DNA of 33,423 nt from Eubacteriales bacterium (GCA_030529125.1 JAUMXP010000001.1:1-33423); one strand, 5' to 3'. Shown: positions 1,366 to 18,357, counted from the stretch's first letter. The notes: a model not told the origin generated them from the sequence alone. Made by a program: numbers and translations.

Positions 1366-2079
1366 ATGATTGATATACACTGTCATATACTTCCTCAGTT
1401 TGATGATGGAGCTAGAAGCCTGGACGAAGCCTTGGAGATGGCTTATTTAGCACACAAAAGTAAAGTCAATACTATCGTCGCTACTCCACATTGTAACGTA
1501 CCGGGTGAGGAAAACAACTATTACGACGATAATTACAAAAGAATATTTTGTAAACTTAGCGAAGCTTTAGCTGAAAACTCTATTCCAGTAAGGTTAATTC
1601 CCGGTATGGAGGTTTTTGTTACTTTTGATTTACCTAACCTCATAAAAAACGGAAAAGTCATAACCATTAACCACAGCCGCTACATTCTTTGTGAGTTTGG
1701 TTTTTCAGAAGACCCTGAGTTTATTGAGCTTATGATAAAACGTATAAAAGAACTTGGTCTGGTTCCGATTATCGCCCATCCCGAACGTTATGATATCGTA
1801 AAATATGACCTTGATTTTGCGAAAGCAATGGTTGATGCTGGTGGGTTATTGCAGGTAAACAAAGGTAGTTTTAAGCAAGCTTTCGGGCGAAGTGCTCAGA
1901 AATGCGCCTACGAACTGTTAAGCGAAAATCTTGTCAGCGCCATAGCCAGCGACGCACATTACAGTACATTCCGTACTCCATATATGCTTGATGTAAAAAA
2001 AGAGCTCGAAAGCATCTGCGATACAAAAACACTCTTTACAGATAACCCTTTTAAAATTTGCTCGGATATTATAATCTAA
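1366..2079 (+). CDS. PHP-family tyrosine-protein phosphatase (CpsB/CapC/YwqE-like)
   Basis: MIDIHCHILP..DDGA, TPH, IAHPERY and ASDAH motifs; directly follows the BY-kinase. Confidence 0.93.
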   Translation: MIDIHCHILPQFDDGARSLDEALEMAYLAHKSKVNTIVATPHCNVPGEENNYYDDNYKRIFCKLSEALAENSIPVRLIPGMEVFVTFDLPNLIKNGKVITINHSRYILCEFGFSEDPEFIELMIKRIKELGLVPIIAHPERYDIVKYDLDFAKAMVDAGGLLQVNKGSFKQAFGRSAQKCAYELLSENLVSAIASDAHYSTFRTPYMLDVKKELESICDTKTLFTDNPFKICSDIII

Positions 2080-2115: not shown

Positions 2116-2604
2116 CTATTTATAAAACTTATATTTGATTTTACGCAAAAATCTCCTGAACGAAAAATATGTTTTCATAGCAAAATACCTGAATTTTATA
2201 TTCCGTATCCATATCTTGCTATAAAATTTCCAAATAAAAGTTGATGTATCTTTCCACTTTCGTCTTCGCTTATATTTTGTTACAACTCCTTTGACACAGC
2301 TATATGGCACAGGACCCTCAACCACAGACTGAGCATCACCAACAAAATATAAATCTTCACCGTCTACTTTATAAACTCTGTGCAAAATATAATCACCATT
2401 ACTTCTTACATATAAAGCGATATCCCCAACACTGAGATTATGTTCAGGCTTTTCAAGATAGACCCATGATTTATTGCTAATCAGAAAAGGAGCCATACTG
2501 GAGCCAGTGACCACAGTAGACACACCTTTGCCCTTAGAGATAATAGAGCATAAGGCGTTCATATATTCAGCTGTATCAATTTCTCTTAACGGTTTATCCC
2601 TCAT
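2116..2604 (-). CDS. S24/S26-family peptidase (signal-peptidase-like, soluble)
   Basis: GSSMAPFL (catalytic Ser), GDIALY, YILHRV and VGD motifs; no N-terminal TM anchor. Confidence 0.8.
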   Translation of the reverse strand: MRDKPLREIDTAEYMNALCSIISKGKGVSTVVTGSSMAPFLISNKSWVYLEKPEHNLSVGDIALYVRSNGDYILHRVYKVDGEDLYFVGDAQSVVEGPVPYSCVKGVVTKYKRRRKWKDTSTFIWKFYSKIWIRNIKFRYFAMKTYFSFRRFLRKIKYKFYK

Positions 2605-2637
2605 CTTATCACCACTGTTTTAGTAAAGCACCCACAT

Positions 2638-3855
2638 CTATGGCGTATTATTTTTAATCTTATAGATTTCAAACAGTTTGCTTCGCCTTTTGCCTATGTG
2701 CATAGATTCAATAACAACACTGACTTTCTGACGCTCTTTACCTGTCATCAAAAAGAAAAATCTGTGTACCCACGCAATCGGCAACAGAATAGGATATTTC
2801 TTAGCGTAAGCATATTTTTCATTCAGGTTTTTGCTCGAACAAAAAATCTTTTTCATAATTCCATTATTATCATTCTTTAACGTTGAAAAAGAAAACACGC
2901 TACTCAATGTTTGTGAGTCAGAAACTTTACCATATATTCCACTCGAAAGAACATCATCAAGCAATAATGTTTCATCTGTTTCTATTTTACTCCAATTTTT
3001 ATTGCTATGGAATATTTCTATATCTTTACCAAGATAATTCTTACCAATCTTGAATATTGCAGCAGCATAATACTGAGCATTTAAACTCACGCAACCTGAG
3101 TACAGTTTATCCCAATCAATATAAGTTTCATATTTATCAGCAAAGAGAATTATGTCGCAAAACTGTCGTATTCCGACACCTCTTCCAGTAAAATGCTTCA
3201 GGCTATGCAAAATAAGATATAGTAAATTTTCGGTATAATTAAAGGTTCTGACATCAACAAAGTTAATGTTCACAAAAACTCCATTATCATAAACATTTCC
3301 GAATAAATCATTATGGCTTTTATAAAAACTTTCATCGCGAATAAAAAGCTTTTTATGTAATTCAATAGTTATCAGATCGGAGTTCCTGAAAACAAGGTGG
3401 TTTTCACAATCATTGACAGTATCATCTGGTGTAAATCCGTTATGATTTAAAACTTTTACACATTTTTCGAAATCATTTTCTGACACAAGGATGTCTTCAT
3501 CAGATGATATACGCAAATCAGGTTTTGGATAAACATAACTGCAAACAATCCCTTTGAATATCATCGGACTGATATTTTCAGCTTCGAAATCTTTATACAA
3601 GCTGAGGATACACTCAGTTTTCTCGATTTGTCTGTAAAACAAAAAACGAACCCTGCTTTTCACTTCATTAAGATTGCTTTTGTCATAAGGATATGTAGCA
3701 TACAATTTGTCAAATATCAGCGGTAAAAGTTTGTGTTTTTCTGCCAAATTAAAAAGCTGAACATACTCTGATAAAGATATAGGTGATTTCACGTCGAATT
3801 CTCGGTTGTTAATGGCTGCATTCAGTACATCTAGAAACAACAAATTGATTGACAC
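2638..3855 (-). CDS. Nucleotidyltransferase family protein (NTP_transf_5-like)
   Basis: FKG...YP.PDLR.SSDEDILV, IELH, LH..KH, GIRQFCD motifs. GTG start at 3855 preferred (SD GGTGGTGA). Confidence 0.82.
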   Translation of the reverse strand: MSINLLFLDVLNAAINNREFDVKSPISLSEYVQLFNLAEKHKLLPLIFDKLYATYPYDKSNLNEVKSRVRFLFYRQIEKTECILSLYKDFEAENISPMIFKGIVCSYVYPKPDLRISSDEDILVSENDFEKCVKVLNHNGFTPDDTVNDCENHLVFRNSDLITIELHKKLFIRDESFYKSHNDLFGNVYDNGVFVNINFVDVRTFNYTENLLYLILHSLKHFTGRGVGIRQFCDIILFADKYETYIDWDKLYSGCVSLNAQYYAAAIFKIGKNYLGKDIEIFHSNKNWSKIETDETLLLDDVLSSGIYGKVSDSQTLSSVFSFSTLKNDNNGIMKKIFCSSKNLNEKYAYAKKYPILLPIAWVHRFFFLMTGKERQKVSVVIESMHIGKRRSKLFEIYKIKNNTP

Positions 3856-3963
3856 AAAATCACCACCCTGATTTATTTGCAAAGCAAATTAATAATATTA
3901 TTATAATACTATGATGTTAAAAATCAAGCATTGCATTTAAAAACACAATCCAGTAAAAACTAA

Positions 3964-3995
3964 CCCCTGTTGCAGTATAAGCGTACAACAGGGGG
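3964..3995 (-). terminator. Intrinsic terminator after the giant gene
   Basis: CCCCTGTTG...CAACAGGGG hairpin with flanking A/T runs. Confidence 0.6.
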
Positions 3996-4078
3996 CGTTT
4001 TTATTTATATTTGTTTTCGAAAATATTTGTCAAACTATACACAGCTATTAATCTGTGCGTTTCAACCAAATCTCGTAA

Positions 4079-7000
4079 TTATTTTTTAGCAGTAATAGTA
4101 TCAGAGTATGCAATTCTGAGAATTCCATCAGCATCTCTGTACATTACGAATGCTCGAGCTATCATCTCGTCACCAAGCTCAACCCCAGTCTTTGTTATGG
4201 AGTGTGAACCAGTGCTTGTCTGATATTTCTTAGCTGGTACAAACTGGGTGACACCTCTGTCAAGTGTGCCTACTACAAATGTAGATTCGCTGTAGTTGTT
4301 CTTATCTGCAAAGAGCACACCTGCACTGATGAAAGTAAATTCGGATTTCTCAGGTACACTCCATGAGAAGAATATGGTGTTGCTATCGCCGAGAGTAGTG
4401 CTGTCTATACCGGCATTTACCAGAACATCATAATCAAGTTTCAGAGAAGTATTGGAAACATACATTGCTGTAAGCTCTGTATCCTTGTAAGGATAGAACT
4501 TATACTCTGCATCGTAGCTTTGGATGTTACCGTCTGCATCCTCCCAATGTGAGAACATCTGTCCATTTGGAGCAGCATTTGCGGTAACAGTTATGGACTT
4601 GTATGCAAGATACTTGCCATCGGTGTTGACACCTGCAGACTTGGTTACTGCTCCGCCGTTTACTGTGATATTGACATAAACATCCTTTACCTCCCAGATA
4701 GGACGAACAGTTACATCCTCGCCCTGAACAAGCAGTTCTCTGATCTCTTCTTCCGTGTGATCCCACTGGGCGAACTCGTAACCCAAGAAAGATGGATCCT
4801 CTGGGAATACGATATCGCTGTCAGGTGAATAGTATTGGATGTCGATAATCTGGTTGCTCTTGTCGTTTCTGAAGGTAACTGTGTTCATACCATCCAAATC
4901 AACCTTAAACATAGCAATCAGTACATCATTACCTGTTGTGTAGAAGGTGTAGGTACGCTCTGTGGTAAGGATATCACCTGTAGTAGCGTTTATCCAACCA
5001 ACAAAAGTGTTGTCGTTGGTGGTTTGGGCTGTTACCTTTACCTGTTTGCCAAAATCCATATGATGATTGTAGTAATGCTTACCCAGAGGACGAGCAATAC
5101 CGTCATCAACACTCATCAGAATATCAGTACCACCGGATACCTTCAGTTCTAGATAACCTGATGTATCATGATCTATCGCAGTCTCATCGTACTGAGCTGT
5201 AATTGTGAGGTTACCTGTGATGTTGCTGAAGTCCTTGTTCCAGCCTGCGAATGTGTATGTGTAGTACCCATCAGCAGGTCTTACAGGGGCAACAGGTGCC
5301 ACAGCAGACTCACCGAGTTTTACAGACTGAGTATCAATTACTGTACCATCATAATCTTTGAATGTTACTGTGTAAGATGGAAGGTACGCAGTATTGGACA
5401 CTTCTGTAGACTGAGGAAGAACCGCAGTGTTTGCATAATTCTGTGTTGAAGGTGTTGCTACATAACCTGGGAAGTATCCCATTGTATCACGAATTGTTTC
5501 ATAATTTGCAAAGGTAAGGTTACTATTAATATCCCAGTTCCACTGCTTTATAGCATTTGACCACATACGATCGATAAGGCTGTAGAAATACTTGCCTTTA
5601 TTAGCAGAGGTTGATTCATCCCATACACCGTTCCACATCTCTACTTCTGTGTTAACTGCAGCGTTATCACACCATACCATAAAGTAACCGCCCTGAAGCT
5701 GGTTATTTGTGAGCTCATACTTAGTTTTATTATATCCGCTGAGCAATCCTGGTGTCCACTCGTTGTAAATAGCGTCTTCGGTATTTCTATAGAAGCCCCA
5801 CCAATTGTTACTTGGGTCACGGGCATCTTTACCCCAATCAGGATATTTTGACAAATCAGTATAGTTTGGATGATCGAAATATCTGAGCACATAATATGTC
5901 CAGAAATTTATACCACCATATACTGTTCTTCCACTATCAACCCATTGGCTTGGAGGTGCTGTATAGGAGCCGTCTGCAGTCCAGATTACAACCTCAATAT
6001 CACTATCAAGCTGTGCGTTGGTTTGGAAAATCTTTGAATAATTATCAACTGTCGTCTTGCGATAGAAGAAATCATTATATACTCTTGAAGTATAATCGTG
6101 TTTTTTCAATACCTTATTAACGTCATTGATGTAATTATACACGTCAGTATATGTGTAACCACTGCTCGAATACAAACCAAGCTCGTCGCCACCAATATTG
6201 AACTTTGTACTTCCTGCATAAACCTTAAAGAACACAGCCATATCGTTATACATAGCGAATGCGAGATTCTTTACTGAATTGTTAGCAAGATTCAATGCTG
6301 AATAACCATTATTGTAATGGATTGTGTTAGGTAATGTATAAGTTGTGCCATTATACTTGAAAGTTTTGATAGAAGTGTTGCCTGCAGCAACCTGTTCAGC
6401 ATAGGTCGTTGTAATCCAATCAACGTGAGCAGGTGTATCAAATGATGGGATAATATCAATATGATATTCCTTAGCAGTTTCGCAAATCTCGATAAGCTCT
6501 GCAGTTGTAAGATATCTGCCAGCATCAGGATCCGCACCACCGCTGTAATTCCAAGATTGCTTTCTGCTACCGATTGCCCATGAGAAGTCATTTCCTGACA
6601 TTCCGTCAAGCTTGATTGTGTTTTCATCCCAGATATCTGAACGGAAACCACCGTCTTCTGACATATGGAATTCAAGAGCGTTGTAACCCATCCATGACAT
6701 CTCAGCAATATAGTTTTTGATCCAATCCTTTGTCAGATACTTTCTTGCAACGTCAAGATGAACTATACGGTCTTTTGTATCAGGTTTATCCTGTGTTGTG
6801 AAGCCCTTGATTGCGTTTGTGTCAGCCTTACGGAAGTGTTTCTGGAGAGTGTTGAGACCGTAGAGGAGACCGTCAACATCCTTAGAATAAACCTTTGCTT
6901 TTTCAGCAACTTCCAGCTTGTATTCCTCGTCGCCGTAGCTGTAGCTGGAATTTACATAGATAAGAATGTCGCCGTCTGTAGCGTATTTCTCAAGACCCCA

Positions 7001-10000
7001 TACGATTTCCATCGGCTCTGCAGATGGAAGACTGTCAGCTGCGAACTGGCTCTGTACAAGCTTCACAGTATCTACAACCTTATCTGAAGGCTTTGAGGAC
7101 TCGTTTTGAGTTACAATATAGAATTTGCTGTCTTCTGACAGTGCAAAGTTTTTACTGCTGTTTGCAGTAAATGTATCTGCCAGAACACCAAGTGAGCTTG
7201 TGTCTGTTCCTACAACAGTAGGCTTAGATGGCTCTACAGGCTCGTTACCTGTATTATCACTATTACCATCGTCCTCTTTGTCAGATGTCATCTGGTCAAC
7301 CAGTCCAATAAAGTCAACAAACTTGGATGTATCAAGGTTGTTGCCTGTGCTGTCAACAATTGTATTTCCCAGCTCATCATTATCATAGATAACGTCAGGA
7401 ACTTCACTTTCGTTTAGAGTACACAGTTTAATACCGTTGTACTTGATACTTGTAAATGATGCCATACCAGGTGTTTCGGTATCAGCTACTCTGATAACAA
7501 CCTGATATCTGTCATTCTCTGCATCATAAGGACATTCAGCATAAGGAATGGTGTAGTACTGCTCGGTACCTGTTGTGATCGTAGATAAGGTCTTCCATAC
7601 GTACTCGTCGTTTACGTAGACACCATACTGGAGCTCTGCGTTAAGACCTGTAGCCTTCTGAGCGTTGAATTGACCGTAGTCAATAGCTCTTACGGCAATC
7701 TGCATATTGTGGACGTCCGTACCGTCTTCCTGTACATAGAATGCTAATGCAGACTTGAGGTTTGCACTTACCTCCTGCATATAGACCTCGTTGTTAGGAC
7801 CTGCAAGGAGGTAATCATTAACGCTGTTTACTATGTTATTAGTCCATTTTAAGTTTTCATCACTAGGCAGAGTGTTGTTACGGTTCTCAATCCAGGTGTT
7901 TGTACCGCCGGATACGCTAAGACCGTCAGTATCGTCATACTTGATTGCAAATGCCTGTCGGTCAGCGATAAGATTTCGGATTTCTTCAAAATCAGCACCG
8001 TTTTCAGTGTCAATGTATGCATCGTTCTTGCCGGCTGTGCCATCTTCATCATCAGCAAGAGGCTGGAAGATTCTGATACCGTCAATAATAAGCCATGACT
8101 CTTTGACTGAAGGCTTATTGCCTACCATATTTGAGAAATCGTAAACAGGGACACCGTTAATCTCTACGGTGTATTTGCCAAAAGCAAGACCATTCACACG
8201 GACAATAGGCACCTGATTGATTGCATCGTCACCATCGTTTGCGTCATTATCAAACTCTGTAATAACTGCCACTGTCTTTACAACCTTACGTGTTGAATCC
8301 TTGACAACAACTCTTGCTGTACTTGAATCGACAGCATTGGTACGACCGATAATCTCAAATCCTGTACCTGTGAAATCAAATGTTGCAAAAGGCTTTGTAT
8401 CGCCGATAGATACCTGAGTCTGGCTATCGCCACTGTAATCCGGCTTCAAAGAATTCTGATATGTAGGGTCTTTACCATACTCAAGTTCTTGGTCGACATT
8501 CTGAGACAGACTGCCTGAGCCATTGCCGATGTGAACCATAGAGTTAGCTGAATCTGTCGTATCGTACTTGATACCTGTAAAATCGTCTTCGTAATAAACA
8601 ACGTTTGCAGGAAGCACCGTTACCTTCTTGTACATCTGTACTTCCTTGTTGATATCAAAGGTCTGACCCAAAGGTGTAGGATCATCTGTTGTCTCGTGAA
8701 CTGTTATAGCCATCCACAAGTCATACATACTGTCCATGAAGTCAGTAGGAGTAAAAGTAAATCCTAACTTTTCTGCATCCTCACCATAGGTAATATCTAC
8801 ATTGTAGCCTGTAGACACTTCAGACGTAGACGAAACAGCAAAATTATTATCTGTGTAAACATCAATTTTGTTTTCTGCGCCAAGGCAGAACTCTTCTATG
8901 TTGCCAGTCTGTCTGCCGTTGTTATTATTGATGATAAAGCCCGTTCTGTCACCATCAAGCTCGTAAATATATCTTCCATTTTCGTCTTGTTCGGTGACAA
9001 TATCACCAGGCCAAGTGGTGCTGCTTGTATCGTTCCAGTGATGAATCGCCACTGTACCCCAGTCATCAGGTACGGAAATAAACAGCTTGGTCTTGGTGTT
9101 TGTGTTTGCTTTACCGCTGTCGATAATGTAATAGCTATTAGTCTTATTAGGAGTCAACATTAAGTTCTGAGACTGAGTGCCGTTTCCGTTATTGACAATA
9201 ACTTTGGTTGCACCTGCAGGAGCCTTCATGGTGTATACACCATCGCCGTCTGTATCTGTTACATGGATACCAGGCCATGCCGGGCCAACATCTCCGTTAG
9301 GGCCGAAGAAGTAGAAATTCACATCTCCGTAGTTTGCAGGTACAGTTGCCTCAACAGTGGTGTTGATCACTATGCCACTGACATTAATCCAAGTTTCAAG
9401 ACCAGGGGTAATAAGCAGATCAGCAGTCTGCTTTGCGCCTTCCTTTTTGCCGTCGTTGACTATTACGTTGGTAACATCGGCAGGAATATTCTCTACTGTA
9501 TATGTGCCGTCAGATTGCTTTTCCATAGCAATACCAGGCCACTCGACGCCGGTACCACTGCCGTTACTGTTCCAGTAATAAAGGCTTGCTGCTTCCCAAT
9601 CATCAGGCACGGTAGCGTGCATCTTTACTTTCTCTGTAGAACGGGATGAAGTTGCACTGTAATAATATATTTTTGTTTCCTCGTTGTAGGATGGATTGTT
9701 GTCATTAACAGTAATCCACGTCTCTTTGCCTGCATATACAGGCTGGTTAGAGGTCTGTTTGCCTTTGTCGCCGTTGTTGATAATAACATTTGAGACATTA
9801 CCAGGGATGTTCATAGTATAGAAGCCGTTTTGATCAACCTCGAGCGGTTCACCCGGCCATTCGTTGTTGTTGTCATACTCATCCCAGTAGTACAGATACA
9901 CCTCTTCCCAGTCATCGGGAACCTGTGCGTGGATAATACCATCCTGAGTATGATATTCTGTGCTTGCGATAAGCTTACCTTCAGAGTTTGTTGTGCCGTC

Positions 10001-13000
10001 GATGGTAATCCATGCTTCCTCGCCTGGGTTGATATCAATATTGACAGTCTGTTGCTGACCGTTGCTAATGATAACATGTGGCACATCTCCAGGGATGCTC
10101 AGGCTGAAATGACCAACTTTATCCATATTCATCACAGTTCCTGGCCAACCATTATCTGCACCGCCATCGTACCAATAATACAGATACGCCTGACGCCACT
10201 GCACAGGGACTTGAACATGGAGAGGGACAGTACCTACAGCTGAAAGGGAGTATTTGTCGTTGTTTGCGTTGTATGTGATAATTTTTCCATTGTCAGGAAT
10301 ATTCATATTGAAAGTAAAATAACCATCAACGCTGTCGTCATCACCCTTTACATCAATTCTGTTTTTCTCATCCAAAGGCATTTTTTCAAAATTAATGCGG
10401 TTGAATTCGGAAATATTGTCTGCAGGGTCAAGGTATGTGGCACCTGTGGTATTGATACCCATAAGCTTTGCTGCAGTACCACTAAGATTTCCCAAAAGGT
10501 TGTCATTCTTAAAGAGCTCTCCATTTGCGTCCAGCTCCTCAGTCTTTAGACCATAGTCCAGAACATAGGTGCTATCCTGAACCTTGGTGCTATGAACCAT
10601 TACACGGACAATAGCATAATCACCCTGATTAAGTCCTGAAACGTCATCTATATATCCACCACCTGTGGACTGAAGGCGCATAAGCAGATAGAACTCGTGC
10701 GTACCCGGCTCTGTGTAATTGATCTGACAGCCCCAATCTCCAGTAGCCTGCTGAGTAAAGAAGCTTACATCCGGTGCATAATCAACCTTTCTGCCGTATT
10801 TATCACAGAATGAGGTATAAATAACGCTTGTGTCACCTTTTACTTTATCAAAGAACTCCTCATACTCTGAGAGTTTATTTCCTGTGGTTTTTGAAGCTTT
10901 AGTGGCATCGTCAAGTATTCTCTTCTCCTGTACAAAGAGGTTGTGCTCTGACCACTGGTAATAGTAAGGAATTCCTGCAACATATATACGGTGACTCGCT
11001 GCACTTCGCAGAGTTTCGTTGCCACTACCATTTGGATCAGACTTTGTAGTCGCAGTAACATTGACTGTATTATCAAATACACCCGCCTCAGCCTGTTCAT
11101 CGGTGAGGGTATAGTAGATGCCCTTGAAGGTAACTTCTGCATCAACCCACAGACCTGAACCACTCTGAGTAAGCTCGTCATCTATAGTTCCGTCACCAAG
11201 ACCGTCGCCCTCCAGAGTTTTCAGGAAAACTTTCAGAGCATTGTTATCATTGAAGCGGATTGTAACCTCTGTGTATACATGTGTACCTGTGCCTGCATCA
11301 ACCTTTGTATACTCGCCTGTTGCCAGATCCTTTATATAGTCACCATTGTTACTGTCAGGCTTATAGCCGGTAACCACCGCCGTAAGGTCGTTGGCTTCAA
11401 GAGTACCGCCTCGGGCATCGGTTACATAGTAACCATTGATATCATCGTTTAAATCATCTGGTGTATCGTCACCTTTAACCAAAAGTCCGTCGGTAGGATT
11501 CAGCTTTACACCGATGTTGCTATCATCAAATGTCAGGTTGTAAAGCTTTGTGTTACCTGTGTTCTTAGCCTTGAGGTTATACTCAATAGGAGCATTCGGG
11601 TTGACAATACCGCCAACCTCAACCTGCTCACCAAACTGGTATGCAGATTTCTCAACACGGAGAGCAGGGTCAGTAACATGCATATTTGTAACAATACGCA
11701 TATTAGCACCGTAGCCGTGACGCTCCATATAATAGAAATCGAATTTTACAATCTCACCATCAACAAGATCAAGAGCCTGTGCACGCTTCACTTCTTCTGC
11801 AGAGTAATTGTCAGGATTAGCTACAACTTCTCTAGCCCATTTTACATAGTCGTTAACCTGGAAGCTAACGGTACTGATAGAGTGAGCACCACCAATATCA
11901 AGAACAAGTTGATCGTTGATGAACAAGTAAACGTCGTCGTCTCCTTCGAACTCGAAGAATAAACCATCCTCTTCGTTAAACACGAACTCACCGTTTGAAG
12001 TAAGAACGTAGTCAAAGTTTCTGTTTATATACGTACCGCCGTCCTTGGTGTATGAGCGATAGCCATCCTCCATCATATAGTATGATTTTGTCTGACCTGC
12101 ATAATCACCGGTTGCGTTCGTTACAGGCAGAAACGGGAATCGGGTAGTTGTGTTAGATCCTGAATAATAGAACAAATCCTTTCCCTGAACAGGACCCATA
12201 GAAATTGTGCCGTCACCACCCTGATTCAGAGAGCTATACTCGACAGAAGACTTAGACTGCTCTTTGTACTGATTCTGAGTGAGTTTTCCGGAGGTGAGAT
12301 CAGCGTTGCTTGCACCATTTGAAAAACCTGCGTCAAATACATAAGCGCTTTTTCCGTCTGACATATTAGCACTGCTAAGAGTAAGGTACTTATAGTCTGT
12401 CTGAAGCTGGTTGTAGGAGTTGTCCACGAAGAGGTTATTAAGCAGGAAGTAGGCAGCATCCATACAGGTATTGATGTTGTCCTTAACATCAAGGAATTCA
12501 CCCACAAGACTACTTGCTTTTGCCTTTGTTTCAGCATATGAACCGAATGTCGGAGCTGAGCCCTTATTCTGACCTGAAGTGAATTTAATGCCAAGACAGT
12601 TACGCAGTGCCTGTGCAAGATCACTCTTACCACTGGTAGCGTATTGGCTACTCTCCTGTCCTTTTACGAAGTTATAATTATATTTACCGCCTGAATCTTT
12701 CTGAGGAATAACAAGCGTTTTTTCAAGCATTTCTGCAATGTATGATATAGCTTCCTCACGATATACAGGACGACCGTTTTCGAGTTCACCCTCTAAAAGA
12801 CCAACAGTCATAAGACCCTGAGTAGCGTGGGTAAGCAGTTTGTATCCATCCAGATCCAGATCTGCCATATTAAAGCCATTCTGATAGTCGCTTGGGTACT
12901 TGTTTTTATAAGCATCCTGAGACGCATAGCTGCTAGATACATAGTAAATCTTGTTGTCGGTACCCAGATTTTTTCCGTTACGGTCTACACGCTTGTCGTT

Positions 13001-14113
13001 ATAAACAGATGAGTAACCACCTGTACCATATGTGTATGGTGTATATCCAACTCTATATGTATTGTATCCGTTGTTCATTGTGGAGGAGGTATCTCCGCCT
13101 CCCAGCGCCCATTTACCACCGGAAGATGGCAGAAGCATACCAAAGCCAAGGTTGTTACCTGCGTTCCAACCATTTGTTGTACTTTTGGTAGATTTTGTGC
13201 TCTTTCTTTCACCCGGATTCTTATCGAAAGCCACCGCAGCCTTGCCGTACTGCTCTGCTTCAAATGAGTTGTTAAAGAACGCAACGTGAGAAAGGTCAAA
13301 ATAGTCACTGGAAGCGTCCATATTAAGACGAATATATATCTTCCAAATATTTGAACTAATACTATCCCAGTAACCACTACCCTGATGTGCATCATAGGCT
13401 GCCTTGAGGTCGATAAGCATATATGTCCAGTCAGAAGAGTTCTGGAATGTGCCCGTATACTTCATCCGTGTCCAGTTAGAAGTAGAACCTATGTTAGAGT
13501 TCATATAAAAAGCAGGTGTACTTCCACTTGCGGTGAGTCCGCTGGAGCGATAAACCACTACCATATAGCGTACCTGATTTGCAGGCTTTGAACCCCAGTC
13601 ATTTACAAAGTCAGCAACACAATAGTTAGCATAATCATAATCACCCGCACGGGTAAGTCTTAAATACTGAGGCGAGGAATTCGCAACAGCAGTTCTTTTA
13701 GTTTTTGTATAGTTGTTACTAGGATTATAGTTACCAGACGGATAGTTCGCGGTGAATGTTGTATATATCCAGTCGCCTGTATAGTCTGAGCCCAATTTGG
13801 TTACGGGCATAGGTGCACCGCCACCATAAAGACCACCACCCGCGGTAGAATAGCTCTCATCTAAAATCGTTTCACCATTAAAGTTGGAATACTCAAAGAG
13901 CATACCATCTGCAAGGTAGTCATAAATTTTGACAGGCCAGTTTATAGTACCATTATTGCCCAAGGTATCGTTCTTGATACCTGTATTACCGGCGTCAGTT
14001 CCGGTTGCGATATCATTGATAGCTGCCAAAACAGATGCAGGAATCAATGAAAATACCATAATAAAGGTCAGAACCAGAGCCAGAACTCTGTTGCCGGATT
14101 TCCACTTCTTCAT
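4079..14113 (-). CDS. Giant secreted multidomain protein: signal peptide, fibro-slime/PA14 domain, five CBM26-like repeats, GH20 N-acetylhexosaminidase-like module, C-terminal beta-rich repeats
   Basis: ATG at 14113 after SD AAAGGAG; signal MKKWKSGNRVLALVLTFIMVFSLIPASVLA. FEGDDDVYLFIN..LVLDIGGAH (~11950-11880). Five VP..W...Y.W...WPG repeats (~10230-8850). HLDVARKY...FH.SED...FDTPAH...IGGDE (~6790-5530). Confidence 0.85.
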   Translation of the reverse strand: MKKWKSGNRVLALVLTFIMVFSLIPASVLAAINDIATGTDAGNTGIKNDTLGNNGTINWPVKIYDYLADGMLFEYSNFNGETILDESYSTAGGGLYGGGAPMPVTKLGSDYTGDWIYTTFTANYPSGNYNPSNNYTKTKRTAVANSSPQYLRLTRAGDYDYANYCVADFVNDWGSKPANQVRYMVVVYRSSGLTASGSTPAFYMNSNIGSTSNWTRMKYTGTFQNSSDWTYMLIDLKAAYDAHQGSGYWDSISSNIWKIYIRLNMDASSDYFDLSHVAFFNNSFEAEQYGKAAVAFDKNPGERKSTKSTKSTTNGWNAGNNLGFGMLLPSSGGKWALGGGDTSSTMNNGYNTYRVGYTPYTYGTGGYSSVYNDKRVDRNGKNLGTDNKIYYVSSSYASQDAYKNKYPSDYQNGFNMADLDLDGYKLLTHATQGLMTVGLLEGELENGRPVYREEAISYIAEMLEKTLVIPQKDSGGKYNYNFVKGQESSQYATSGKSDLAQALRNCLGIKFTSGQNKGSAPTFGSYAETKAKASSLVGEFLDVKDNINTCMDAAYFLLNNLFVDNSYNQLQTDYKYLTLSSANMSDGKSAYVFDAGFSNGASNADLTSGKLTQNQYKEQSKSSVEYSSLNQGGDGTISMGPVQGKDLFYYSGSNTTTRFPFLPVTNATGDYAGQTKSYYMMEDGYRSYTKDGGTYINRNFDYVLTSNGEFVFNEEDGLFFEFEGDDDVYLFINDQLVLDIGGAHSISTVSFQVNDYVKWAREVVANPDNYSAEEVKRAQALDLVDGEIVKFDFYYMERHGYGANMRIVTNMHVTDPALRVEKSAYQFGEQVEVGGIVNPNAPIEYNLKAKNTGNTKLYNLTFDDSNIGVKLNPTDGLLVKGDDTPDDLNDDINGYYVTDARGGTLEANDLTAVVTGYKPDSNNGDYIKDLATGEYTKVDAGTGTHVYTEVTIRFNDNNALKVFLKTLEGDGLGDGTIDDELTQSGSGLWVDAEVTFKGIYYTLTDEQAEAGVFDNTVNVTATTKSDPNGSGNETLRSAASHRIYVAGIPYYYQWSEHNLFVQEKRILDDATKASKTTGNKLSEYEEFFDKVKGDTSVIYTSFCDKYGRKVDYAPDVSFFTQQATGDWGCQINYTEPGTHEFYLLMRLQSTGGGYIDDVSGLNQGDYAIVRVMVHSTKVQDSTYVLDYGLKTEELDANGELFKNDNLLGNLSGTAAKLMGINTTGATYLDPADNISEFNRINFEKMPLDEKNRIDVKGDDDSVDGYFTFNMNIPDNGKIITYNANNDKYSLSAVGTVPLHVQVPVQWRQAYLYYWYDGGADNGWPGTVMNMDKVGHFSLSIPGDVPHVIISNGQQQTVNIDINPGEEAWITIDGTTNSEGKLIASTEYHTQDGIIHAQVPDDWEEVYLYYWDEYDNNNEWPGEPLEVDQNGFYTMNIPGNVSNVIINNGDKGKQTSNQPVYAGKETWITVNDNNPSYNEETKIYYYSATSSRSTEKVKMHATVPDDWEAASLYYWNSNGSGTGVEWPGIAMEKQSDGTYTVENIPADVTNVIVNDGKKEGAKQTADLLITPGLETWINVSGIVINTTVEATVPANYGDVNFYFFGPNGDVGPAWPGIHVTDTDGDGVYTMKAPAGATKVIVNNGNGTQSQNLMLTPNKTNSYYIIDSGKANTNTKTKLFISVPDDWGTVAIHHWNDTSSTTWPGDIVTEQDENGRYIYELDGDRTGFIINNNNGRQTGNIEEFCLGAENKIDVYTDNNFAVSSTSEVSTGYNVDITYGEDAEKLGFTFTPTDFMDSMYDLWMAITVHETTDDPTPLGQTFDINKEVQMYKKVTVLPANVVYYEDDFTGIKYDTTDSANSMVHIGNGSGSLSQNVDQELEYGKDPTYQNSLKPDYSGDSQTQVSIGDTKPFATFDFTGTGFEIIGRTNAVDSSTARVVVKDSTRKVVKTVAVITEFDNDANDGDDAINQVPIVRVNGLAFGKYTVEINGVPVYDFSNMVGNKPSVKESWLIIDGIRIFQPLADDEDGTAGKNDAYIDTENGADFEEIRNLIADRQAFAIKYDDTDGLSVSGGTNTWIENRNNTLPSDENLKWTNNIVNSVNDYLLAGPNNEVYMQEVSANLKSALAFYVQEDGTDVHNMQIAVRAIDYGQFNAQKATGLNAELQYGVYVNDEYVWKTLSTITTGTEQYYTIPYAECPYDAENDRYQVVIRVADTETPGMASFTSIKYNGIKLCTLNESEVPDVIYDNDELGNTIVDSTGNNLDTSKFVDFIGLVDQMTSDKEDDGNSDNTGNEPVEPSKPTVVGTDTSSLGVLADTFTANSSKNFALSEDSKFYIVTQNESSKPSDKVVDTVKLVQSQFAADSLPSAEPMEIVWGLEKYATDGDILIYVNSSYSYGDEEYKLEVAEKAKVYSKDVDGLLYGLNTLQKHFRKADTNAIKGFTTQDKPDTKDRIVHLDVARKYLTKDWIKNYIAEMSWMGYNALEFHMSEDGGFRSDIWDENTIKLDGMSGNDFSWAIGSRKQSWNYSGGADPDAGRYLTTAELIEICETAKEYHIDIIPSFDTPAHVDWITTTYAEQVAAGNTSIKTFKYNGTTYTLPNTIHYNNGYSALNLANNSVKNLAFAMYNDMAVFFKVYAGSTKFNIGGDELGLYSSSGYTYTDVYNYINDVNKVLKKHDYTSRVYNDFFYRKTTVDNYSKIFQTNAQLDSDIEVVIWTADGSYTAPPSQWVDSGRTVYGGINFWTYYVLRYFDHPNYTDLSKYPDWGKDARDPSNNWWGFYRNTEDAIYNEWTPGLLSGYNKTKYELTNNQLQGGYFMVWCDNAAVNTEVEMWNGVWDESTSANKGKYFYSLIDRMWSNAIKQWNWDINSNLTFANYETIRDTMGYFPGYVATPSTQNYANTAVLPQSTEVSNTAYLPSYTVTFKDYDGTVIDTQSVKLGESAVAPVAPVRPADGYYTYTFAGWNKDFSNITGNLTITAQYDETAIDHDTSGYLELKVSGGTDILMSVDDGIARPLGKHYYNHHMDFGKQVKVTAQTTNDNTFVGWINATTGDILTTERTYTFYTTGNDVLIAMFKVDLDGMNTVTFRNDKSNQIIDIQYYSPDSDIVFPEDPSFLGYEFAQWDHTEEEIRELLVQGEDVTVRPIWEVKDVYVNITVNGGAVTKSAGVNTDGKYLAYKSITVTANAAPNGQMFSHWEDADGNIQSYDAEYKFYPYKDTELTAMYVSNTSLKLDYDVLVNAGIDSTTLGDSNTIFFSWSVPEKSEFTFISAGVLFADKNNYSESTFVVGTLDRGVTQFVPAKKYQTSTGSHSITKTGVELGDEMIARAFVMYRDADGILRIAYSDTITAKK

Positions 14114-14214
14114 GGCTTTTACTCCTTTCAATCAACAACTTCTCGTTGTCATACAGAAATCTATGTGAACACTATATATCAATAATGTATTAAATACATT
14201 AACATTTTTCTTAA

Positions 14215-14910
14215 CTATTCCATTTGATAGCTATAACGGACAATGCGAGAGTTATCCTCATAATGTCCTGCTTGTTTTTTTTGGATATCATCAGGCTTCA
14301 AAGTATCAAAACCAACCATATAAGTAATACCACCAAGATAGTTTCCGTCAGAGTTTAGGTTCTTATAATAAACACAGGGATTAGAGAGGTTATCTTCAGA
14401 GATATTTTTAAGTGTCAGGGTATTCCCATCAACTTCTACCTCTAGCTTGTCCGTGGTCAAAAGAGCGTCGTCACGGAAGGTACTCTGACAATCCAGAAAC
14501 TCAAACTCCGAGTCTGCTTTTACTCCCATACGGTTTGCCTCAAGGACCCAGGCTCTCTTTGAGGGTGGAAGTCCCGAAACCACAAACTGGGCTGTCTTAC
14601 CGTCCACATCGTAGGTAACCGTCGCAAACTCCAGATACTCGTCTGAGCGATTCTCCAGAAGCACCGCCAGAATGTTCTCCACCTCTTCGTTTGAGCCGTC
14701 CTCCACATAGGGCCCGCTGTAGCTTGTAAACTCCAGACAGTACAAATCCTCTGAGGACGCTCTGTTCTGGGTTGCACCATACGAAATGTCCTTGGTGGAA
14801 TCCTCTTTCGTACAGCCAGAAAATGTCACAGCCAACAACAGCACCAACACCGAAGCCATAACTCGCAGGGTAACAGTCCCATTTAAGTATATTCGATTGT
14901 TTCTTGCCAC
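14215..14910 (-). CDS. Hypothetical lipoprotein
   Basis: GTG at 14910 after SD GGAGGTGA; hydrophobic stretch ending in lipobox FSG-C; acidic beta-rich body. Confidence 0.72.
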   Translation of the reverse strand: MARNNRIYLNGTVTLRVMASVLVLLLAVTFSGCTKEDSTKDISYGATQNRASSEDLYCLEFTSYSGPYVEDGSNEEVENILAVLLENRSDEYLEFATVTYDVDGKTAQFVVSGLPPSKRAWVLEANRMGVKADSEFEFLDCQSTFRDDALLTTDKLEVEVDGNTLTLKNISEDNLSNPCVYYKNLNSDGNYLGGITYMVGFDTLKPDDIQKKQAGHYEDNSRIVRYSYQME

Positions 14911-15065
14911 GGTTTCACCTCCGCTTCGGCTCTTTTTGTACATAATAACGATAATACCCCTTTTTACAGGCTATTACATATAGTATATAGTATCATCTTG
15001 ATTGTCCACAGTCAATTGTTTTTTGGTAAAATGAAGGGTTTTTTGGATAAATTTTCCAAAAAGTC

Positions 15066-15094
15066 TTGCATTTGTCTAACATAGGAGTTATAAT
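15066..15094 (+). promoter_or_regulatory. Sigma-A promoter for the PqqD-precursor-kinase-rSAM operon
   Basis: TTGCAT-17 nt-TATAAT. Confidence 0.65.
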
Positions 15095-15170
15095 GTAGGT
15101 CTAATTTGTATCATTAGGAGAGTGAGCTCTTTTTTTCTTGTCTTCTCCTGTGATATCTGGGAGGAAAAAG

Positions 15171-15443
15171 ATGCGCGTCTTAAGCGGATTTATCGTTCGG
15201 GAAGTCGCCGGCGAAACCATTGCTATCCCTTCCGGTGACGCTGCAAAAAGCCTCTCCGGTCTGCTAGCTCTCAACGAAAGCGGAAAGCTACTCTTCGAAC
15301 TACTCCAAAGCGAGCAGACAGAAACAAGCCTTGTTGAAGCTTTGCTCAACGAATTCGATATCGACTTTGCCACCGCACAAGCTGATGTCGCAGAATTTTT
15401 AGAGATTCTGCGGTCAAGTGGTGTGCTGGTAGAATCTGAATAA
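15171..15443 (+). CDS. PqqD-family RiPP recognition element (stand-alone RRE)
   Basis: ATG after GGGAGG; REVAGE...LNESG..LFELL...L..EFDID...A.ADV.EFL..L...G pattern; 90 aa. Confidence 0.9.
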   Translation: MRVLSGFIVREVAGETIAIPSGDAAKSLSGLLALNESGKLLFELLQSEQTETSLVEALLNEFDIDFATAQADVAEFLEILRSSGVLVESE

Positions 15444-15495
15444 TCCCGTATAAACTTCATTAGTTTTTGTTTTTGAGTTAGGTAGGTTAAAAACT

Positions 15496-15756
15496 ATGAA
15501 AAAGAAATATCAGAAGCCTATGGTTGCTGTTGAGTTTTATAAGCTCAGCCAATCTATCGCTGCATGCACTATTAAAATCGGTTTCCTGGACAACCAGTGC
15601 GTGGTCAACGACCCTGACTCACCGATAGAAATGCGCAGCTTAGCATATGCTTATCCTGAATACTTCAGCACAGGATGTGCTATACACTACAACAACATTC
15701 AGGAAAATGACTCTCTGTGTTTCCACACACAGGCTAACGCTACATTTACATCCTGA
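15496..15756 (+). CDS. Putative RiPP precursor peptide (86 aa)
   Basis: Leader MKKKYQKPMV matches the YxxP-hydrophobic RRE-binding pattern; core has Cys24, 35, 61, 75 and ends in Ser; lies between RRE and modifying enzymes. Confidence 0.78.
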   Translation: MKKKYQKPMVAVEFYKLSQSIAACTIKIGFLDNQCVVNDPDSPIEMRSLAYAYPEYFSTGCAIHYNNIQENDSLCFHTQANATFTS

Positions 15757-15757
15757 T

Positions 15758-16633
15758 ATGAATAGAGAAATTTCTTTTTGTATCCGTTTTTCAGGATTAA
15801 CCCTTCGCTTTGTATTACCTACAACTGTAAACCTACCCGAAAACTTCACCTCTCTTATCTGCGAGGATGTTGAAAATCCTACAGCAGAGTACAAAGTCTG
15901 CTTACTCAAGACCCCTCTTTGTCCTGAATCAAAACCCATTTCAAAAGAGGGAGACACACATATATATGTTACCGATAAAGGCTGTCTGCGCATTTACTCA
16001 GCTCTAACTGCTGACGATGGGTGCCAGGTGGCCTGTCTTTTATGTAAAAACGGCAAAAACATTCTATATTATCCTGCGAAAATGTGGGATTACTATCGAA
16101 AATACTGGCACTGTACACATCTTTTGGCAGGAGAGCTTTTGCTTATGTGGCACAATGCTTTTTTACTGCACAGCTCTGTTGTGATACTAAACGGAAAGGC
16201 TATTCTTTTTTGCGGTCCATCAGGTGTAGGAAAATCAACCCAAGCAACACTTTGGGCGCAACATCTGAATGCAGACATCATCAACGGTGACCGATGTGTC
16301 ATCACAAAAAAAGACGGGATTTTTTACGGTGGTGGCTCTCCCTGGAGCGGAACATCAGGTATTTTTAAAAGCGAGCAGGCTCCTATAGCAGGAATCTTAC
16401 TCCTCTCAAAATCCAACGAAAACAGTATCACAGGGCTTAAATCAGAGGCTTTTGCACCTTTATACAGTCAGACCACTGTAAACAGCTGGGATAGGGAATT
16501 CGTGGACAAGGTATCTGATTTTTATTCTGAGCTTCTTTCTAAGGTTTCTGTTTATGAACTTAAATGTCGACCCGACAAAGATGCAGTGATGCTCGCATAT
16601 AACACCTTGTTTAAAAAGGGGGACTTCGTATGA
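15758..16633 (+). CDS. HprK-related P-loop kinase (RiPP-associated)
   Basis: LLHSSVV, FCGPSGVGKSTQA, INGDR and GSPWSG motifs; ATG 1 nt after the precursor stop. Confidence 0.8.
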   Translation: MNREISFCIRFSGLTLRFVLPTTVNLPENFTSLICEDVENPTAEYKVCLLKTPLCPESKPISKEGDTHIYVTDKGCLRIYSALTADDGCQVACLLCKNGKNILYYPAKMWDYYRKYWHCTHLLAGELLLMWHNAFLLHSSVVILNGKAILFCGPSGVGKSTQATLWAQHLNADIINGDRCVITKKDGIFYGGGSPWSGTSGIFKSEQAPIAGILLLSKSNENSITGLKSEAFAPLYSQTTVNSWDREFVDKVSDFYSELLSKVSVYELKCRPDKDAVMLAYNTLFKKGDFV

Positions 16634-17738
16634 CCACTAATACAAGTGCAAATATCCGTCGCAATCTCTGCAGCCAGTGTGCAACTCTTGGCATTCCTAT
16701 CAGTGGCATTTTTGAGTTGACCCCAGATGCAATCTAAAGTGTAAAATGTGCTATGTCCGTCTGACTGATGAGCAGATGGCGCCTATCGGAAAAGAACGCA
16801 CCGCAAAGCAGTGGATCCAGTTTGCACAGGAATGTAAAGACGCAGGAATGGTCTTTCTGCTGATCACCGGTGGTGAACCCACCCTGCGCTCTGATTTTCC
16901 TGAAATTTACGAAAGCCTCGCTCAAATGGGGCTATCTATATCTATCAACACCAACGGCACCCTGCTGACTCCAAAGATAAGAGAACTCTGGCATCGTTTA
17001 CCTCCAGCGCAGGTCAACGTCACTCTCTACGGCGTGTGCCGAGAAGACTACGCGGACCTCTGCTCAAACCCTGACGCTTTTGACGCAGTTGTAGAAACTC
17101 TTAACTGGCTGAAAAAAGAGGGTATTCTGGTGCATCTCAACACCACTATAGTACCCTCCAATTATCCTAAGTGGATGAAGCTTGAGGAATTCGCAAACGA
17201 CAGAGACCTGGAGCTGAGAATGACCTGCTACTGCTTCCCTCCTACCAGAAGAGCCCTATGTGACAATTGTGACTCGTTTTCTCGTCTGACCCCACAAGAG
17301 GCAGGTACTCTTATCGCGCAGGACCTTCTCTATCGTGAAGGAATTGACGCGATAAAAGCAAGAGCAAAAAACCTGTCATCTCCTTTGCAGCGTAGCTGTG
17401 ACCTTGAAAACGGCGACCCTATCCAGTGTCTTGCCGGCCGATCACAGTTCTGGGTCACATGGGACGGAAGGATGACCCCGTGTGGAATGCTCAGCACTCC
17501 TGACACTCATCCCTTCAAAGAGGGATTTTCCGCGTCATGGGAACAACTACGCAAACATTGTTCCAAAATCCGTCTATGTCCTGATTGTGCCCGATGTGAA
17601 CATCAGAAATCCTGTATGAACTGTGCAGCAGTGACCTTTGCTGAAACCGGCAGATTTGACGGCAAGCCTGAATATATGTGCGAGCTAAACCGTGCCTACC
17701 GCGAATCCGTGACAAAACTTGTTGAAAAATCAAAGTAA
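16630..17738 (+). pseudogene. Radical SAM/SPASM peptide maturase with a 1-nt frameshift at ~16721-16724 (pseudogene or sequence error)
   Basis: ATG 16630 overlaps the kinase stop and reads MTTN...FELTP then stops at 16735. Another frame continues RCNLKCKMCY (CxxxCxxC), TGGEP, and SPASM cysteines CLAG...TPC...CARC...CMNC...MC. Confidence 0.85.
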
Positions 17739-17873: not shown

Positions 17874-18335
17874 TTATCTTTTGTTTTCAGACAGTGTTGA
17901 GTGGCCGTCATCGTTTATTTCAAGCAAATAGTCACAGTACTTTAACATTGATTGTCTGTGAGTGATTATGAAGCAAGTTTTATCATGTATTTGACTAAAC
18001 TTTTAAAATATTCTCGCCTCGGTTTTCTCATCCAAAGCAGAAGTTGCTTCGTCTAAAATCAGAACCGGCTTATCTCGAAGTAAAGCTCTTGCAATCGCAA
18101 TACGTTGAGCCTGCCCCTCAGAAATACCTCCTGCCCCTTCAGAAATCATCGTATCAAGCCCCAAATGAGTCTTCTTTAAAAATTTCTCTGCCTGAGAAAA
18201 CCTCAGTGCTTCCCACATCTGATCATCGGTAGCGTGAGGATTTCCTTTCAGCAGATTATCTCTGACCGTACCTGACATCAGTGTATTCCCCTGTGGTACA
18301 TAGGAAATAAACCTACGCGAAGCCGGACACGCCTG
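17874..18335 (-). pseudogene. 3' remnant of ABC exporter ATP-binding domain
   Basis: Q-loop YVPQ, signature ISEGQAQR, Walker B LILDEATSALD, in-frame TAA at 18003-18005, then H-loop IITHR to stop at 17874. Walker A and TMD absent. Confidence 0.85.
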
Positions 18336-18357
18336 CTCTGTCGCCCACGATAACCGC

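What the first reader, a model, noticed from the sequence alone, without database searches (positions are those of the whole stretch)
2116..17738. Hybrid RiPP system: lasso-type leader, kinase and nucleotidyltransferase logic with a radical SAM/SPASM maturase and an S26 peptidase instead of lasso cyclase and B2 protease
Seen: a compact operon of RRE, 86-aa Cys-rich peptide, HprK-like kinase and rSAM/SPASM (15171-17738), an adjacent ABC exporter remnant, and a nucleotidyltransferase plus soluble S26 peptidase pair (2116-3855). Established: paeninodin/pseudomycoidin-type lasso clusters use RRE, an HprK-like kinase acting on the C-terminal Ser, and a nucleotidyltransferase; rSAM/SPASM enzymes make Cys thioether crosslinks in sacti/ranthipeptides. 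Inference: the product is an rSAM-crosslinked peptide carrying a phosphorylated and further decorated C-terminal Ser, a combination I do not know as a characterised class.
Basis: partly seen in the sequence, partly recalled or inferred. Interest (0 to 1): 0.9.

Follow-up and report, generated by a model that had tools for sequence, protein, structure and literature searches.

The report
Four-cysteine peptide pathway, giant surface partner
These genes of a ruminant gut bacterium encode a small four-cysteine peptide beside enzymes predicted to cross-link, phosphorylate, trim and sugar-tag it, and in related bacteria they mostly sit next to giant secreted proteins sharing one unnamed region that likely binds the finished peptide.

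Summary
All six genes are real. The radical-SAM frameshift is not fixed in the population: 7 of 7 runs laid carry the missing base. The 86-aa peptide belongs to an unnamed family (195 clusters) with a YxxP leader, four Cys and a terminal F-x-S. The S26/NTase pair co-occurs with the operon and is probably transcribed divergently from it. The closest described system is LPP (PMC13381572), which already has RRE, S26-type leader peptidase, kinase, NTase and exporter without a cyclase. That part is known, and this scan noted radical-SAM variants in at least 24 other genomes. LPP's Ser site is not conserved here, while the terminal Ser is. Precursor genes in 8 families sit beside giant secreted proteins of varied make-up that share one unannotated ~440-aa pair of lectin-like beta-sandwiches. 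In a draw of 150 relatives that region occurs only in the 6 genomes with a precursor, and it led to 3 missed precursors. Binding is untested and no product is known. Verdict: new variant of a known kind.

The parts
15171..15443 (+). Stand-alone RRE (PqqD family), 90 aa
   Evidence: PF05402 53 bits over cut-off 23.4; present in 15 of 15 close and 16 of 20 distant loci
15496..15756 (+). Precursor, 86 aa: YxxP leader (Y5, P8), Cys24, Cys35, Cys61, Cys75, C-F-H-T, terminal F-T-S
   Evidence: 17 near homologues; 195 clusters at E<=0.001; column counts; no Pfam or NCBIfam family
15758..16633 (+). HprK-like kinase, 291 aa: His138, Walker A GPSGVGKST at 153, N-G-D-R at 176
   Evidence: weak HprK_rel_A/B hits, E about 0.001, far below cut-off; motifs conserved in the family alignment
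16630..17738 (+). Radical SAM/SPASM enzyme; one base missing near 16720 in this assembly; CxxxCxxC plus seven conserved C-terminal Cys
   Evidence: PF04055; conserved Cys; extra C in 7 of 7 runs; intact in relatives
17874..18343 (-). 3' remnant of an ABC exporter, cut by an integrase gene; one in-frame stop
   Evidence: PF00005; continues in 4 runs; a whole ABC gene lies at the same place in L006
14215..14943 (-). Predicted lipoprotein with a FxLYD-like domain (start codon uncertain)
   Evidence: FSGC lipobox-like stretch; NF038353 E 5e-4, below cut-off; in 14 of 15 close and 7 of 20 distant loci
4079..14113 (-). Giant secreted protein, 3344 aa: fibro-slime/PA14, five CBM26, shared region, GH20
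7421..8740 (-). Shared unannotated region of the giant protein (aa 1792-2231): two beta-sandwiches of carbohydrate-binding-module-like fold
   Evidence: common to otherwise unlike giants; no Pfam hit for the window's copy and no PDB sequence hit; models; fold matches
2638..3855 (-). NTP_transf_5 nucleotidyltransferase, 405 aa, with K-G and R-x-S-x-D-x-D motifs
   Evidence: PF14907; conserved residues
2116..2604 (-). S26/S24-type peptidase, 162 aa, with invariant Ser36, His75, Asp90; no membrane anchor evident by eye
14968..15114 (.). Intergenic stretch, probable divergent promoter region
   Evidence: RNA-library contigs of two runs of one study end at 14964/14967 and begin at 15118/15115, while a DNA contig bridges it; TATAAT at 15089-15094
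61..2079 (+). wzc-type tyrosine kinase and cpsB phosphatase (polysaccharide locus), the usual home of the S26 gene in relatives

Best explanation
This is a conserved peptide-modification (RiPP) system in which a four-cysteine precursor is predicted to be held by the RRE through its YxxP leader, likely phosphorylated on its last serine, likely thioether cross-linked by the radical-SAM enzyme, likely trimmed by the S26 peptidase, possibly sugar- or nucleotide-tagged by the NTase and exported, and the product likely works with the giant secreted protein encoded beside it. Shown: gene content, conserved motifs and co-occurrence. Inferred from LPP and paeninodin/pseudomycoidin work: RRE-dependent leader cleavage by the Ser/His/Asp peptidase, phosphorylation, and glycosylation or nucleotidylation of the phosphate. 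Inferred from conservation: Ser86 as the phosphate site; Cys35 to Asp39 (C-x3-D) and Cys75 to Asp72 as candidate beta-thioether pairs; cleavage most simply after I21-A22-A23, leaving Cys24 first (Q19|S20 is the alternative). Inferred from co-occurrence and fold only: the shared pair of lectin-like beta-sandwiches binds the (glyco)phospho-peptide, which would then act at the cell surface rather than as a free antibiotic.
For: Core four genes together in 15 of 15 close loci. Exactly four core Cys in 117 of 129 precursors, Ser in the last two residues in 129 of 129, and a terminal F-x-S in 113 of 129. Asp/Glu at Cys2+4 in 56 of 117 (shuffled mean 15.8, maximum 28 in 300 shuffles) and at Cys4-3 in 89 of 129 (mean 17.9, maximum 31). 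PapB links Cys to Asp in C-x3-D (PMC9413430, passages). Seven conserved SPASM Cys. S26 Ser36/His75/Asp90 are invariant; the Ser-His spacing of 39 equals that of LppS S29/H68. S26 and NTase orthologues at tight thresholds occur in 6 of 90 genus members against 5 of 90 with the precursor, and the sixth has its contig end inside the giant gene. One RNA-library contig spans S26, NTase, giant and lipoprotein (2246-14967). Shared region: 18 of 20 distant loci; in the own genome only at the two four-Cys loci and at none of the four other RRE loci; 6 of 150 relatives, all with a precursor; 14 of 400 order genomes, 13 with a precursor and 1 cut by a contig end. Three of 6 assessable new region loci have a precursor directly downstream that the genome searches had not reported.
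Against: No chemistry or binding was tested. The rSAM reaches no family cut-off (PapB model 44 of 340 bits), so its reaction is not predicted by family. Only two of four Cys have an enriched acidic neighbour. The kinase has N-G-D where lasso kinases have Asp-Asp. S26 is adjacent in only 3 of 20 distant loci and NTase in 2 of 20. An S26 of this type is present somewhere in 10 of 10 distant precursor genomes but also in 3 of 5 genomes without a precursor hit, and the own genome has other RRE/peptide sets it could serve. The region model was built from giants at precursor loci (11 of the 12 order genomes), so precursor-to-region counts are partly circular. Three of 6 new region loci have no precursor nearby (G890:C22, G885:C15, G044:C81), and L001, L013 and G890:C53 have a precursor without the region in the DNA held. 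Kin are not independent. The RNA runs come from one study and are contigs. In LPP, deleting lppN changed nothing detectable.
Confidence: 0.55

Rival explanations
1. The peptide pathway is as described, but the giant protein only travels with it on one surface/polysaccharide island. The product is a diffusible signal or bacteriocin, and the shared region is an ordinary glycan-binding module.
For: Both halves fold like carbohydrate-binding modules (Z 12.1, rmsd 4.2, 129 aligned to 3nqh; Z 9.8, rmsd 3.2, 116 aligned to 2waa). The giants carry glycoside hydrolase domains. Orphan copies of the region exist. Sequence distances of region and precursor correlate (rho 0.46) about as those of rSAM and kinase do (0.51), which joint descent alone gives.
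Against: The rest of the giant is swapped freely (GH20, GH88, VWA, PA14, X25, dockerin) while this region stays. Gene order is reshuffled, yet the giant is usually directly upstream of the precursor on the same strand, at times between RRE and precursor. A second giant at two loci lacks the region (L051b, L067). None of 144 other relatives has it.
Confidence: 0.35
2. The radical-SAM enzyme does not make thioethers. It links an aromatic ring to a neighbouring carbon (the terminal F-x-S as a Phe-Ser cyclophane, or the C-Y-H-T motif), and the four Cys form disulfides or bind a metal. The kinase then acts on Thr78 or on the residue before Cys24.
For: F84 (116 of 129), F57 (122 of 129), Y76 (117 of 129) and H77 (100 of 129) are better conserved than any candidate acidic acceptor. 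F-x-S is the motif of FxsB-type cyclophane formers (recalled, not from a call). An even number of Cys is typical.
Against: The kinase needs a Ser/Thr, and Ser86 is the only nearly invariant one. No cyclophane-former model is among the best 25 NCBIfam hits of two intact homologues (inconclusive). Several distant precursors have three Cys, which fits two disulfides poorly. Asp/Glu is enriched next to two Cys.
Confidence: 0.2
3. The S26 and NTase belong to a separate, LPP-like module of the polysaccharide locus that processes other short peptides; the four-Cys precursor is trimmed by another protease and is not NTase-modified.
For: In relatives S26 usually sits inside wzc-wzc-S26-cpsB. It is present in genomes with no precursor hit. 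The own genome has short YxxP-type peptides with their own RRE and S26 on C43, C62 and C68.
Against: This particular S26/NTase clade tracks the precursor within the genus. In G852 precursor, kinase, rSAM, ABC, S26, RRE, cpsB and wzc form one run of genes. The S26-bearing polysaccharide loci of G658 and G773 show no RRE or precursor of their own in the DNA held.
Confidence: 0.2

Closest known systems
LPP, linear polyphosphorylated peptides (lppA-K-B-S-D-N; Popov et al. 2026, PMC13381572; read: abstract, introduction, sections 6, 7, 9, 11, 12, term searches of main text and 6 supplements)
   Same: Discrete RRE, YxxP leader, signal-peptidase-type leader peptidase with Ser/His/Asp, HprK-like kinase, NTase, MsbA-like exporter, no cyclase, position in polysaccharide loci.
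   Different: The main text has no mention of radical SAM or SPASM. LPP's leader YxxPxVLxHQxIxFETxxS is matched only in YxxP. LppK modifies core Ser3; the matching position is Ala here and Ser in only 52 of 129 relatives. LPP cores are variable, whereas these have four fixed Cys and a fixed C-terminus. The supplement lists one Ruminococcus peptidase with an RRE in network cluster 9, outside the LPP cluster, with no precursor determined.
Paeninodin/pseudomycoidin phospho(glyco)-lasso peptides (PadeK, PsmK, PsmN; review PMC9266682, passages)
   Same: Kinase acting on a conserved C-terminal Ser; NTase needed for hexose addition to the phosphate; RRE.
   Different: No macrolactam cyclase or B2 protease is linked here. 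The kinase shows His, Lys and one Asp (N-G-D) instead of His-Lys-Asp-Asp.
Ranthipeptides of the PapB/freyrasin type (PMC9413430, passages; PMC10288494, part 2 and section 7)
   Same: rSAM/SPASM enzyme with an RRE; Cys-containing core; one C-x3-D motif (C35-D39).
   Different: Enzyme far below the PapB cut-off; stand-alone RRE; one C-x3-D rather than six; kinase, NTase and S26 peptidase.
NCBIfam-defined uncharacterised cassettes SynChlorMet (ScmC/E/F), GeoRSP, HPr-rel-A/B, ACGX
   Same: PqqD-family protein, rSAM/SPASM and HprK-like kinase in one cassette (cassette make-up partly recalled; model names).
   Different: All scores are far below cut-off (ScmE 66 of 400, GeoRSP 55 of 400, HprK_rel 18 of 200).

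Membership tests
LPP | Discrete RRE and YxxP leader | tested here: met
LPP | SpI-like peptidase with Ser/His/Asp | tested here: met
   S36, H75, D90 invariant in 9 of 9; not aligned to LppS itself
LPP | HprK-like kinase, NTase and MsbA-like exporter | tested here: met
   kinase hits are weak; exporter is a remnant here and continues in 4 runs
LPP | Leader consensus YxxPxVLxHQxIxFETxxS with Ser at core position 3 | tested here: not met
   family consensus YxKPxxxVExFxLxQxIAxC; the position 18 after Tyr is Ala here and Ser in 52 of 129
LPP | Linear product, no cross-linking enzyme in the core set | tested here: not met
   rSAM/SPASM in 15 of 15 close and 17 of 20 distant loci
Lasso peptides (paeninodin type) | Macrolactam cyclase and B2 cysteine protease | tested here: not met
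   the only asparagine-synthetase-like gene (22121-24451) passes the AsnB cut-off and scores 210 of 525 bits on the lasso cyclase model; no B2 hit among 24 window proteins
Lasso peptides (paeninodin type) | Conserved C-terminal Ser with tailoring kinase | tested here: met
   phosphorylation itself untested
Ranthipeptides/sactipeptides | rSAM with SPASM domain, RRE and Cys-containing core | tested here: met
Ranthipeptides/sactipeptides | Enzyme belongs to a described thioether-forming family (PapB, AlbA, SkfB, StsB) | tested here: not met
   all far below cut-off; sactisynthases are known to be sequence-divergent (PMC10288494)
Ranthipeptides/sactipeptides | S-C thioether cross-links in the product | not testable with these tools
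   needs LC-MS/MS and alkylation
FxS-type cyclophane peptides | F-x-S motif and an enzyme of the FxsB family (family features recalled) | tested here: inconclusive
   motif present; no such model among the best 25 of 76-78 families shown
SynChlorMet / GeoRSP / HPr-rel cassettes | Members pass the NCBIfam cut-offs | tested here: not met

The most novel reading that the evidence does not exclude
A RiPP that is neither antibiotic nor signal but a built-in part of a cell-surface machine: a cross-linked, sugar-phosphate-tipped peptide made to dock on a dedicated, unnamed double beta-sandwich carried by many different giant secreted glycan-active proteins, possibly tying them to the capsule made by the neighbouring wzc/cpsB locus.
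Probability: 0.3. Interest if true: 0.88.

Novelty: new variant of a known kind. Interest (0 to 1): 0.68.

Why it matters
The LPP paper leaves the final product, the NTase's role and the biological function open, and notes an unexplained link to capsule loci. This family adds a fixed four-Cys scaffold, an unassigned radical-SAM enzyme, and a concrete candidate partner: one 440-aa region that can be expressed and tested for binding. If it binds, it would show a ribosomal natural product acting as a structural adaptor for surface enzymes of gut fibre-degrading bacteria. If not, it is still an uncharacterised rSAM plus phospho-tailoring peptide class with a defined substrate, and an unnamed domain family of at least 533 proteins.

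Tried and rejected
Complex prediction of the shared region with the core peptide was not available, so there is no structural evidence either way on binding. The ESM Atlas search gave no answer. The shared region has no Pfam family for the window's copy (best in any of 18 members E 0.0098) and no PDB sequence match at E<=1. Foldseek on the whole region gave only low TM-scores. The S26 has no meaningful PDB sequence match. Class-wide draw: precursor in 0 of 398 other genomes scored, 2 not scored, so the family was not found outside the order in those searched. A metagenome scan with the broad alignment was not possible; the narrow one gave 5 short loci. The promoter scan gave 13 sites against 7.4 expected, which is not used as evidence. 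The integrase region has almost no RNA cover, but DNA cover is patchy too, so it is no valid silent control. Rejected: rSAM as a pseudogene; the asparagine synthetase at 22121-24451 as a lasso cyclase; the longer kinase ORF start at 15647, which overlaps the precursor, whereas homologues begin near 15758. Literature: searches returned nothing; some searches returned listings with no description of this cassette or of a giant-protein link. Subscription journals are mostly missing from the library and bioRxiv supplements are closed. The supplementary dataset of PMC10288494 (about 15,000 RRE-linked rSAMs) was not searched and may list these enzymes.
Full report
Setting. The window is the whole contig C64 of a 1.67-Mb, 86%-complete genome. 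Records with the closest precursors are titled Ruminococcus sp., Oscillospiraceae or Clostridia bacterium, and runs holding the DNA are mostly gut metagenomes, some named sheep or bovine. The order name Oscillospirales is my inference from those titles.

Observation. The rSAM frame breaks near 16720, but all 7 distinct runs laid show an extra C there, and relatives are intact. The break is an assembly error or private to this strain. The ABC gene is cut by an integrase gene at 18343; in 4 runs the contig continues with ABC-like sequence. Between the two groups lie a 3344-aa secreted protein (fibro-slime/PA14, five CBM26, GH20) and a lipoprotein, and wzc and cpsB abut the S26 gene.

Precursor family. 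A word search gave 17 homologues. A profile of these found 195 clusters at E<=0.001, of which the best 150 were listed. I kept 129 of the 150 and dropped 21 as fragments or for lacking YxxP or a Cys near the end, so Y5, P8 and Cys75 are complete by construction. Not by construction: Cys24 128, Cys35 119, Cys61 128, Phe57 122, Tyr76 117, His77 100 and Phe84 116 of 129. Ser is the last residue in 121 and among the last two in 129. Exactly four core Cys occur in 117 of 129. Asp/Glu stands four after Cys2 in 56 of 117 and three before Cys4 in 89 of 129, against shuffled maxima of 28 and 31 (the sequences are related, so this is no probability). A broader profile (119 rows) found the precursor in 12 of 400 order genomes from 8 families and in 0 of 398 class-wide.

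Enzymes. The rSAM keeps CxxxCxxC and seven further conserved Cys. That such a set leaves an open iron site used by thioether formers is recalled, not tested. It reaches no NCBIfam cut-off, and its nearest solved relatives, PqqE and SkfB, match only the SAM barrel. The kinase keeps His, Walker A and N-G-D, whereas lasso kinases have His-Lys-Asp-Asp. The S26 has invariant Ser36, His75 and Asp90.

Do S26 and NTase belong? In 14 distinct genomes with a close precursor (18 handles, four of them duplicates), both orthologues are present in 14, and on the precursor's contig within 13 kb in 9. In the draw of 150 relatives, tight matches to each occur in 7 genomes: the 5 with the precursor, a sister whose contig ends inside the giant gene, and one more each. 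Of those two, G126 has a distant precursor, while none was found in G109 with the narrow profile. One RNA-library contig runs from 2246 to 14967, and RNA contigs of both runs stop at 14964-14967 and restart at 15115-15118, where a DNA contig runs through. This fits two divergent operons from one promoter region, but both runs are from one study and are contigs, so it is a weak hint. Against a tight link: in 20 distant loci S26 is near in 3 and NTase in 2. S26 is found elsewhere in 10 of 10 such genomes, often in polysaccharide operons, but also in 3 of 5 genomes without a precursor hit.

The overlooked partner. Nearly every precursor gene has a giant secreted protein beside it, in distant loci mostly directly upstream on the same strand, sometimes between RRE and precursor. 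These giants differ in Pfam content but share one unannotated region, aa 1792-2231 here, with conserved motifs such as PA-x-x-x-YYE, F-x-F-x-GTG and GP-x-NE. It is present in 18 of 20 distant loci (kinase 18, one of them a fragment; rSAM 17; RRE 16) and in 9 of 15 close loci; four of the six close misses are cut by contig or locus ends, and L001 and L013 lack it in the DNA held. These counts are partly circular, as the model was built from 16 such giants and 2 of the 20 loci were found through the region.

The less circular tests follow. In the own genome the region occurs only at the two four-Cys loci, not at four other RRE loci. In 150 relatives it occurs in 6 genomes, all with a precursor, 4 of them not in the model. 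In the order draw it occurs in 14 of 400, adding G852, which proved to hold a full cassette with a divergent precursor, and G873, cut by a contig end. Of 6 assessable new loci, 3 have a precursor directly downstream and 3 do not, the latter in genomes that have a cassette elsewhere. At least 533 proteins of 836-2385 aa carry the region. AlphaFold2 gives two beta-sandwiches (mean pLDDT 67.7 for the whole, 83.8 for the second half alone). Both resemble carbohydrate-binding jelly rolls (best Z 12.1 and 9.8), a shared fold that shows no function. Sequence distances of region, precursor and enzymes correlate (rho 0.19-0.51), which shows joint inheritance, not contact. No complex prediction was available.

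Mechanism. Most likely the RRE binds the YxxP leader; the kinase phosphorylates Ser86; the rSAM forms thioethers (candidates C35-D39 and C75-D72; partners of Cys24 and Cys61 are unclear); the S26 removes the leader; the NTase decorates the phosphate; and the ABC protein exports the product. Each step is inferred from LPP, paeninodin/pseudomycoidin and PapB precedents. The small residue before Cys24 (Ser 52, Ala 39, Gly 17, Asn 12 of 129) with Ile three before it fits a signal-peptidase -3/-1 pattern (recalled rule). I put this outline, with some functional tie to the giant protein, at 0.55, and direct binding as a surface adaptor at 0.3. The rivals are hitch-hiking of the giant, aromatic cross-linking instead of thioethers, and an unrelated S26/NTase; they are not exclusive.

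Comparison. It works like LPP plus a cross-linking enzyme but fails two LPP-defining features: the leader consensus with core Ser3, and a linear product. It is not a lasso cluster and belongs to no named rSAM family. The lead to the LPP paper came from earlier notes of this scan, which list 25 findings in at least 24 genomes holding the same search words; the eight shown describe rSAM plus LPP-like cassettes, and two mention giant surface proteases. I read the paper myself and did not check their clusters. My ten literature searches found no description of this family, within the limits of the library.

Verdict. Real, and a new variant of a known kind. The fixed four-Cys scaffold and the recurring, unnamed partner region make it specific and testable. 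Interest 0.68.

Noticed in passing
G000 contig C20 (L020, L089): A second four-Cys cassette in one run of genes: RRE, lipoprotein-like gene, N-terminal half of the giant with the shared region, precursor, kinase, a separate GH20 protein matching the giant's C-terminal half, rSAM. The same split occurs in G126, G885 and G599:C21.
   Followed up: yes
G000 contigs C62, C43, C68: Other RRE sets with short peptides of different type: C62 has two MYQxPDF-type precursors, kinase, RRE, rSAM, a 725-aa lanthipeptide-kinase-like protein (label by eye), S26 and ABC. C43 and C68 have acidic Cys-free peptides with RRE and S26 behind large secreted proteins, closer to plain LPP logic.
   Followed up: partly
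window 18358-20413: Tyrosine integrase (328 aa, apparently lacking its N-terminus) starting where the ABC gene is cut, followed by an HTH-Fic gene; apparently a strain-specific insertion, since four runs continue with ABC sequence at 18343.
   Followed up: partly
L001:5498-8554 and the same place in L002-L006, L008, L011: A 1000-aa secreted CotH-kinase + CBM26 + dockerin protein lies between the rSAM and the polysaccharide operon in relatives (Pfam run on the L001 copy); absent from the window.
   Followed up: partly
L002, L004, L006-L010, L012, L027: The shared region carries an insertion between its parts in these giants, so its modules tolerate separation.
   Followed up: no
L105:6326-9416 (G580:C38): A different cassette: RRE, rSAM, 96-aa two-Cys precursor ending in SVIA, kinase, S26. 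It could supply RRE and rSAM to that genome's four-Cys locus, which lacks both.
   Followed up: no
L113:8355-9482 (G247): A kinase-S26 fusion in one 375-aa ORF.
   Followed up: no
L057:16553-19528 (G890:C53): An orphan four-Cys precursor directly upstream of an 895-aa GDPD-domain lipoprotein, with no enzymes nearby.
   Followed up: no
window 26481-28001: 506-aa protein with weak SAP and FokI-cleavage-domain hits in a low-GC stretch; possibly a restriction-type defence gene.
   Followed up: no
window 22121-24451: Asparagine synthetase with a long acidic C-terminal extension of about 170 aa.
   Followed up: partly
G000 contig C95:1-1334: Paralogous NTase-S26 pair (63-76% identical) whose NTase has a frameshift in the assembly.
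   Followed up: no
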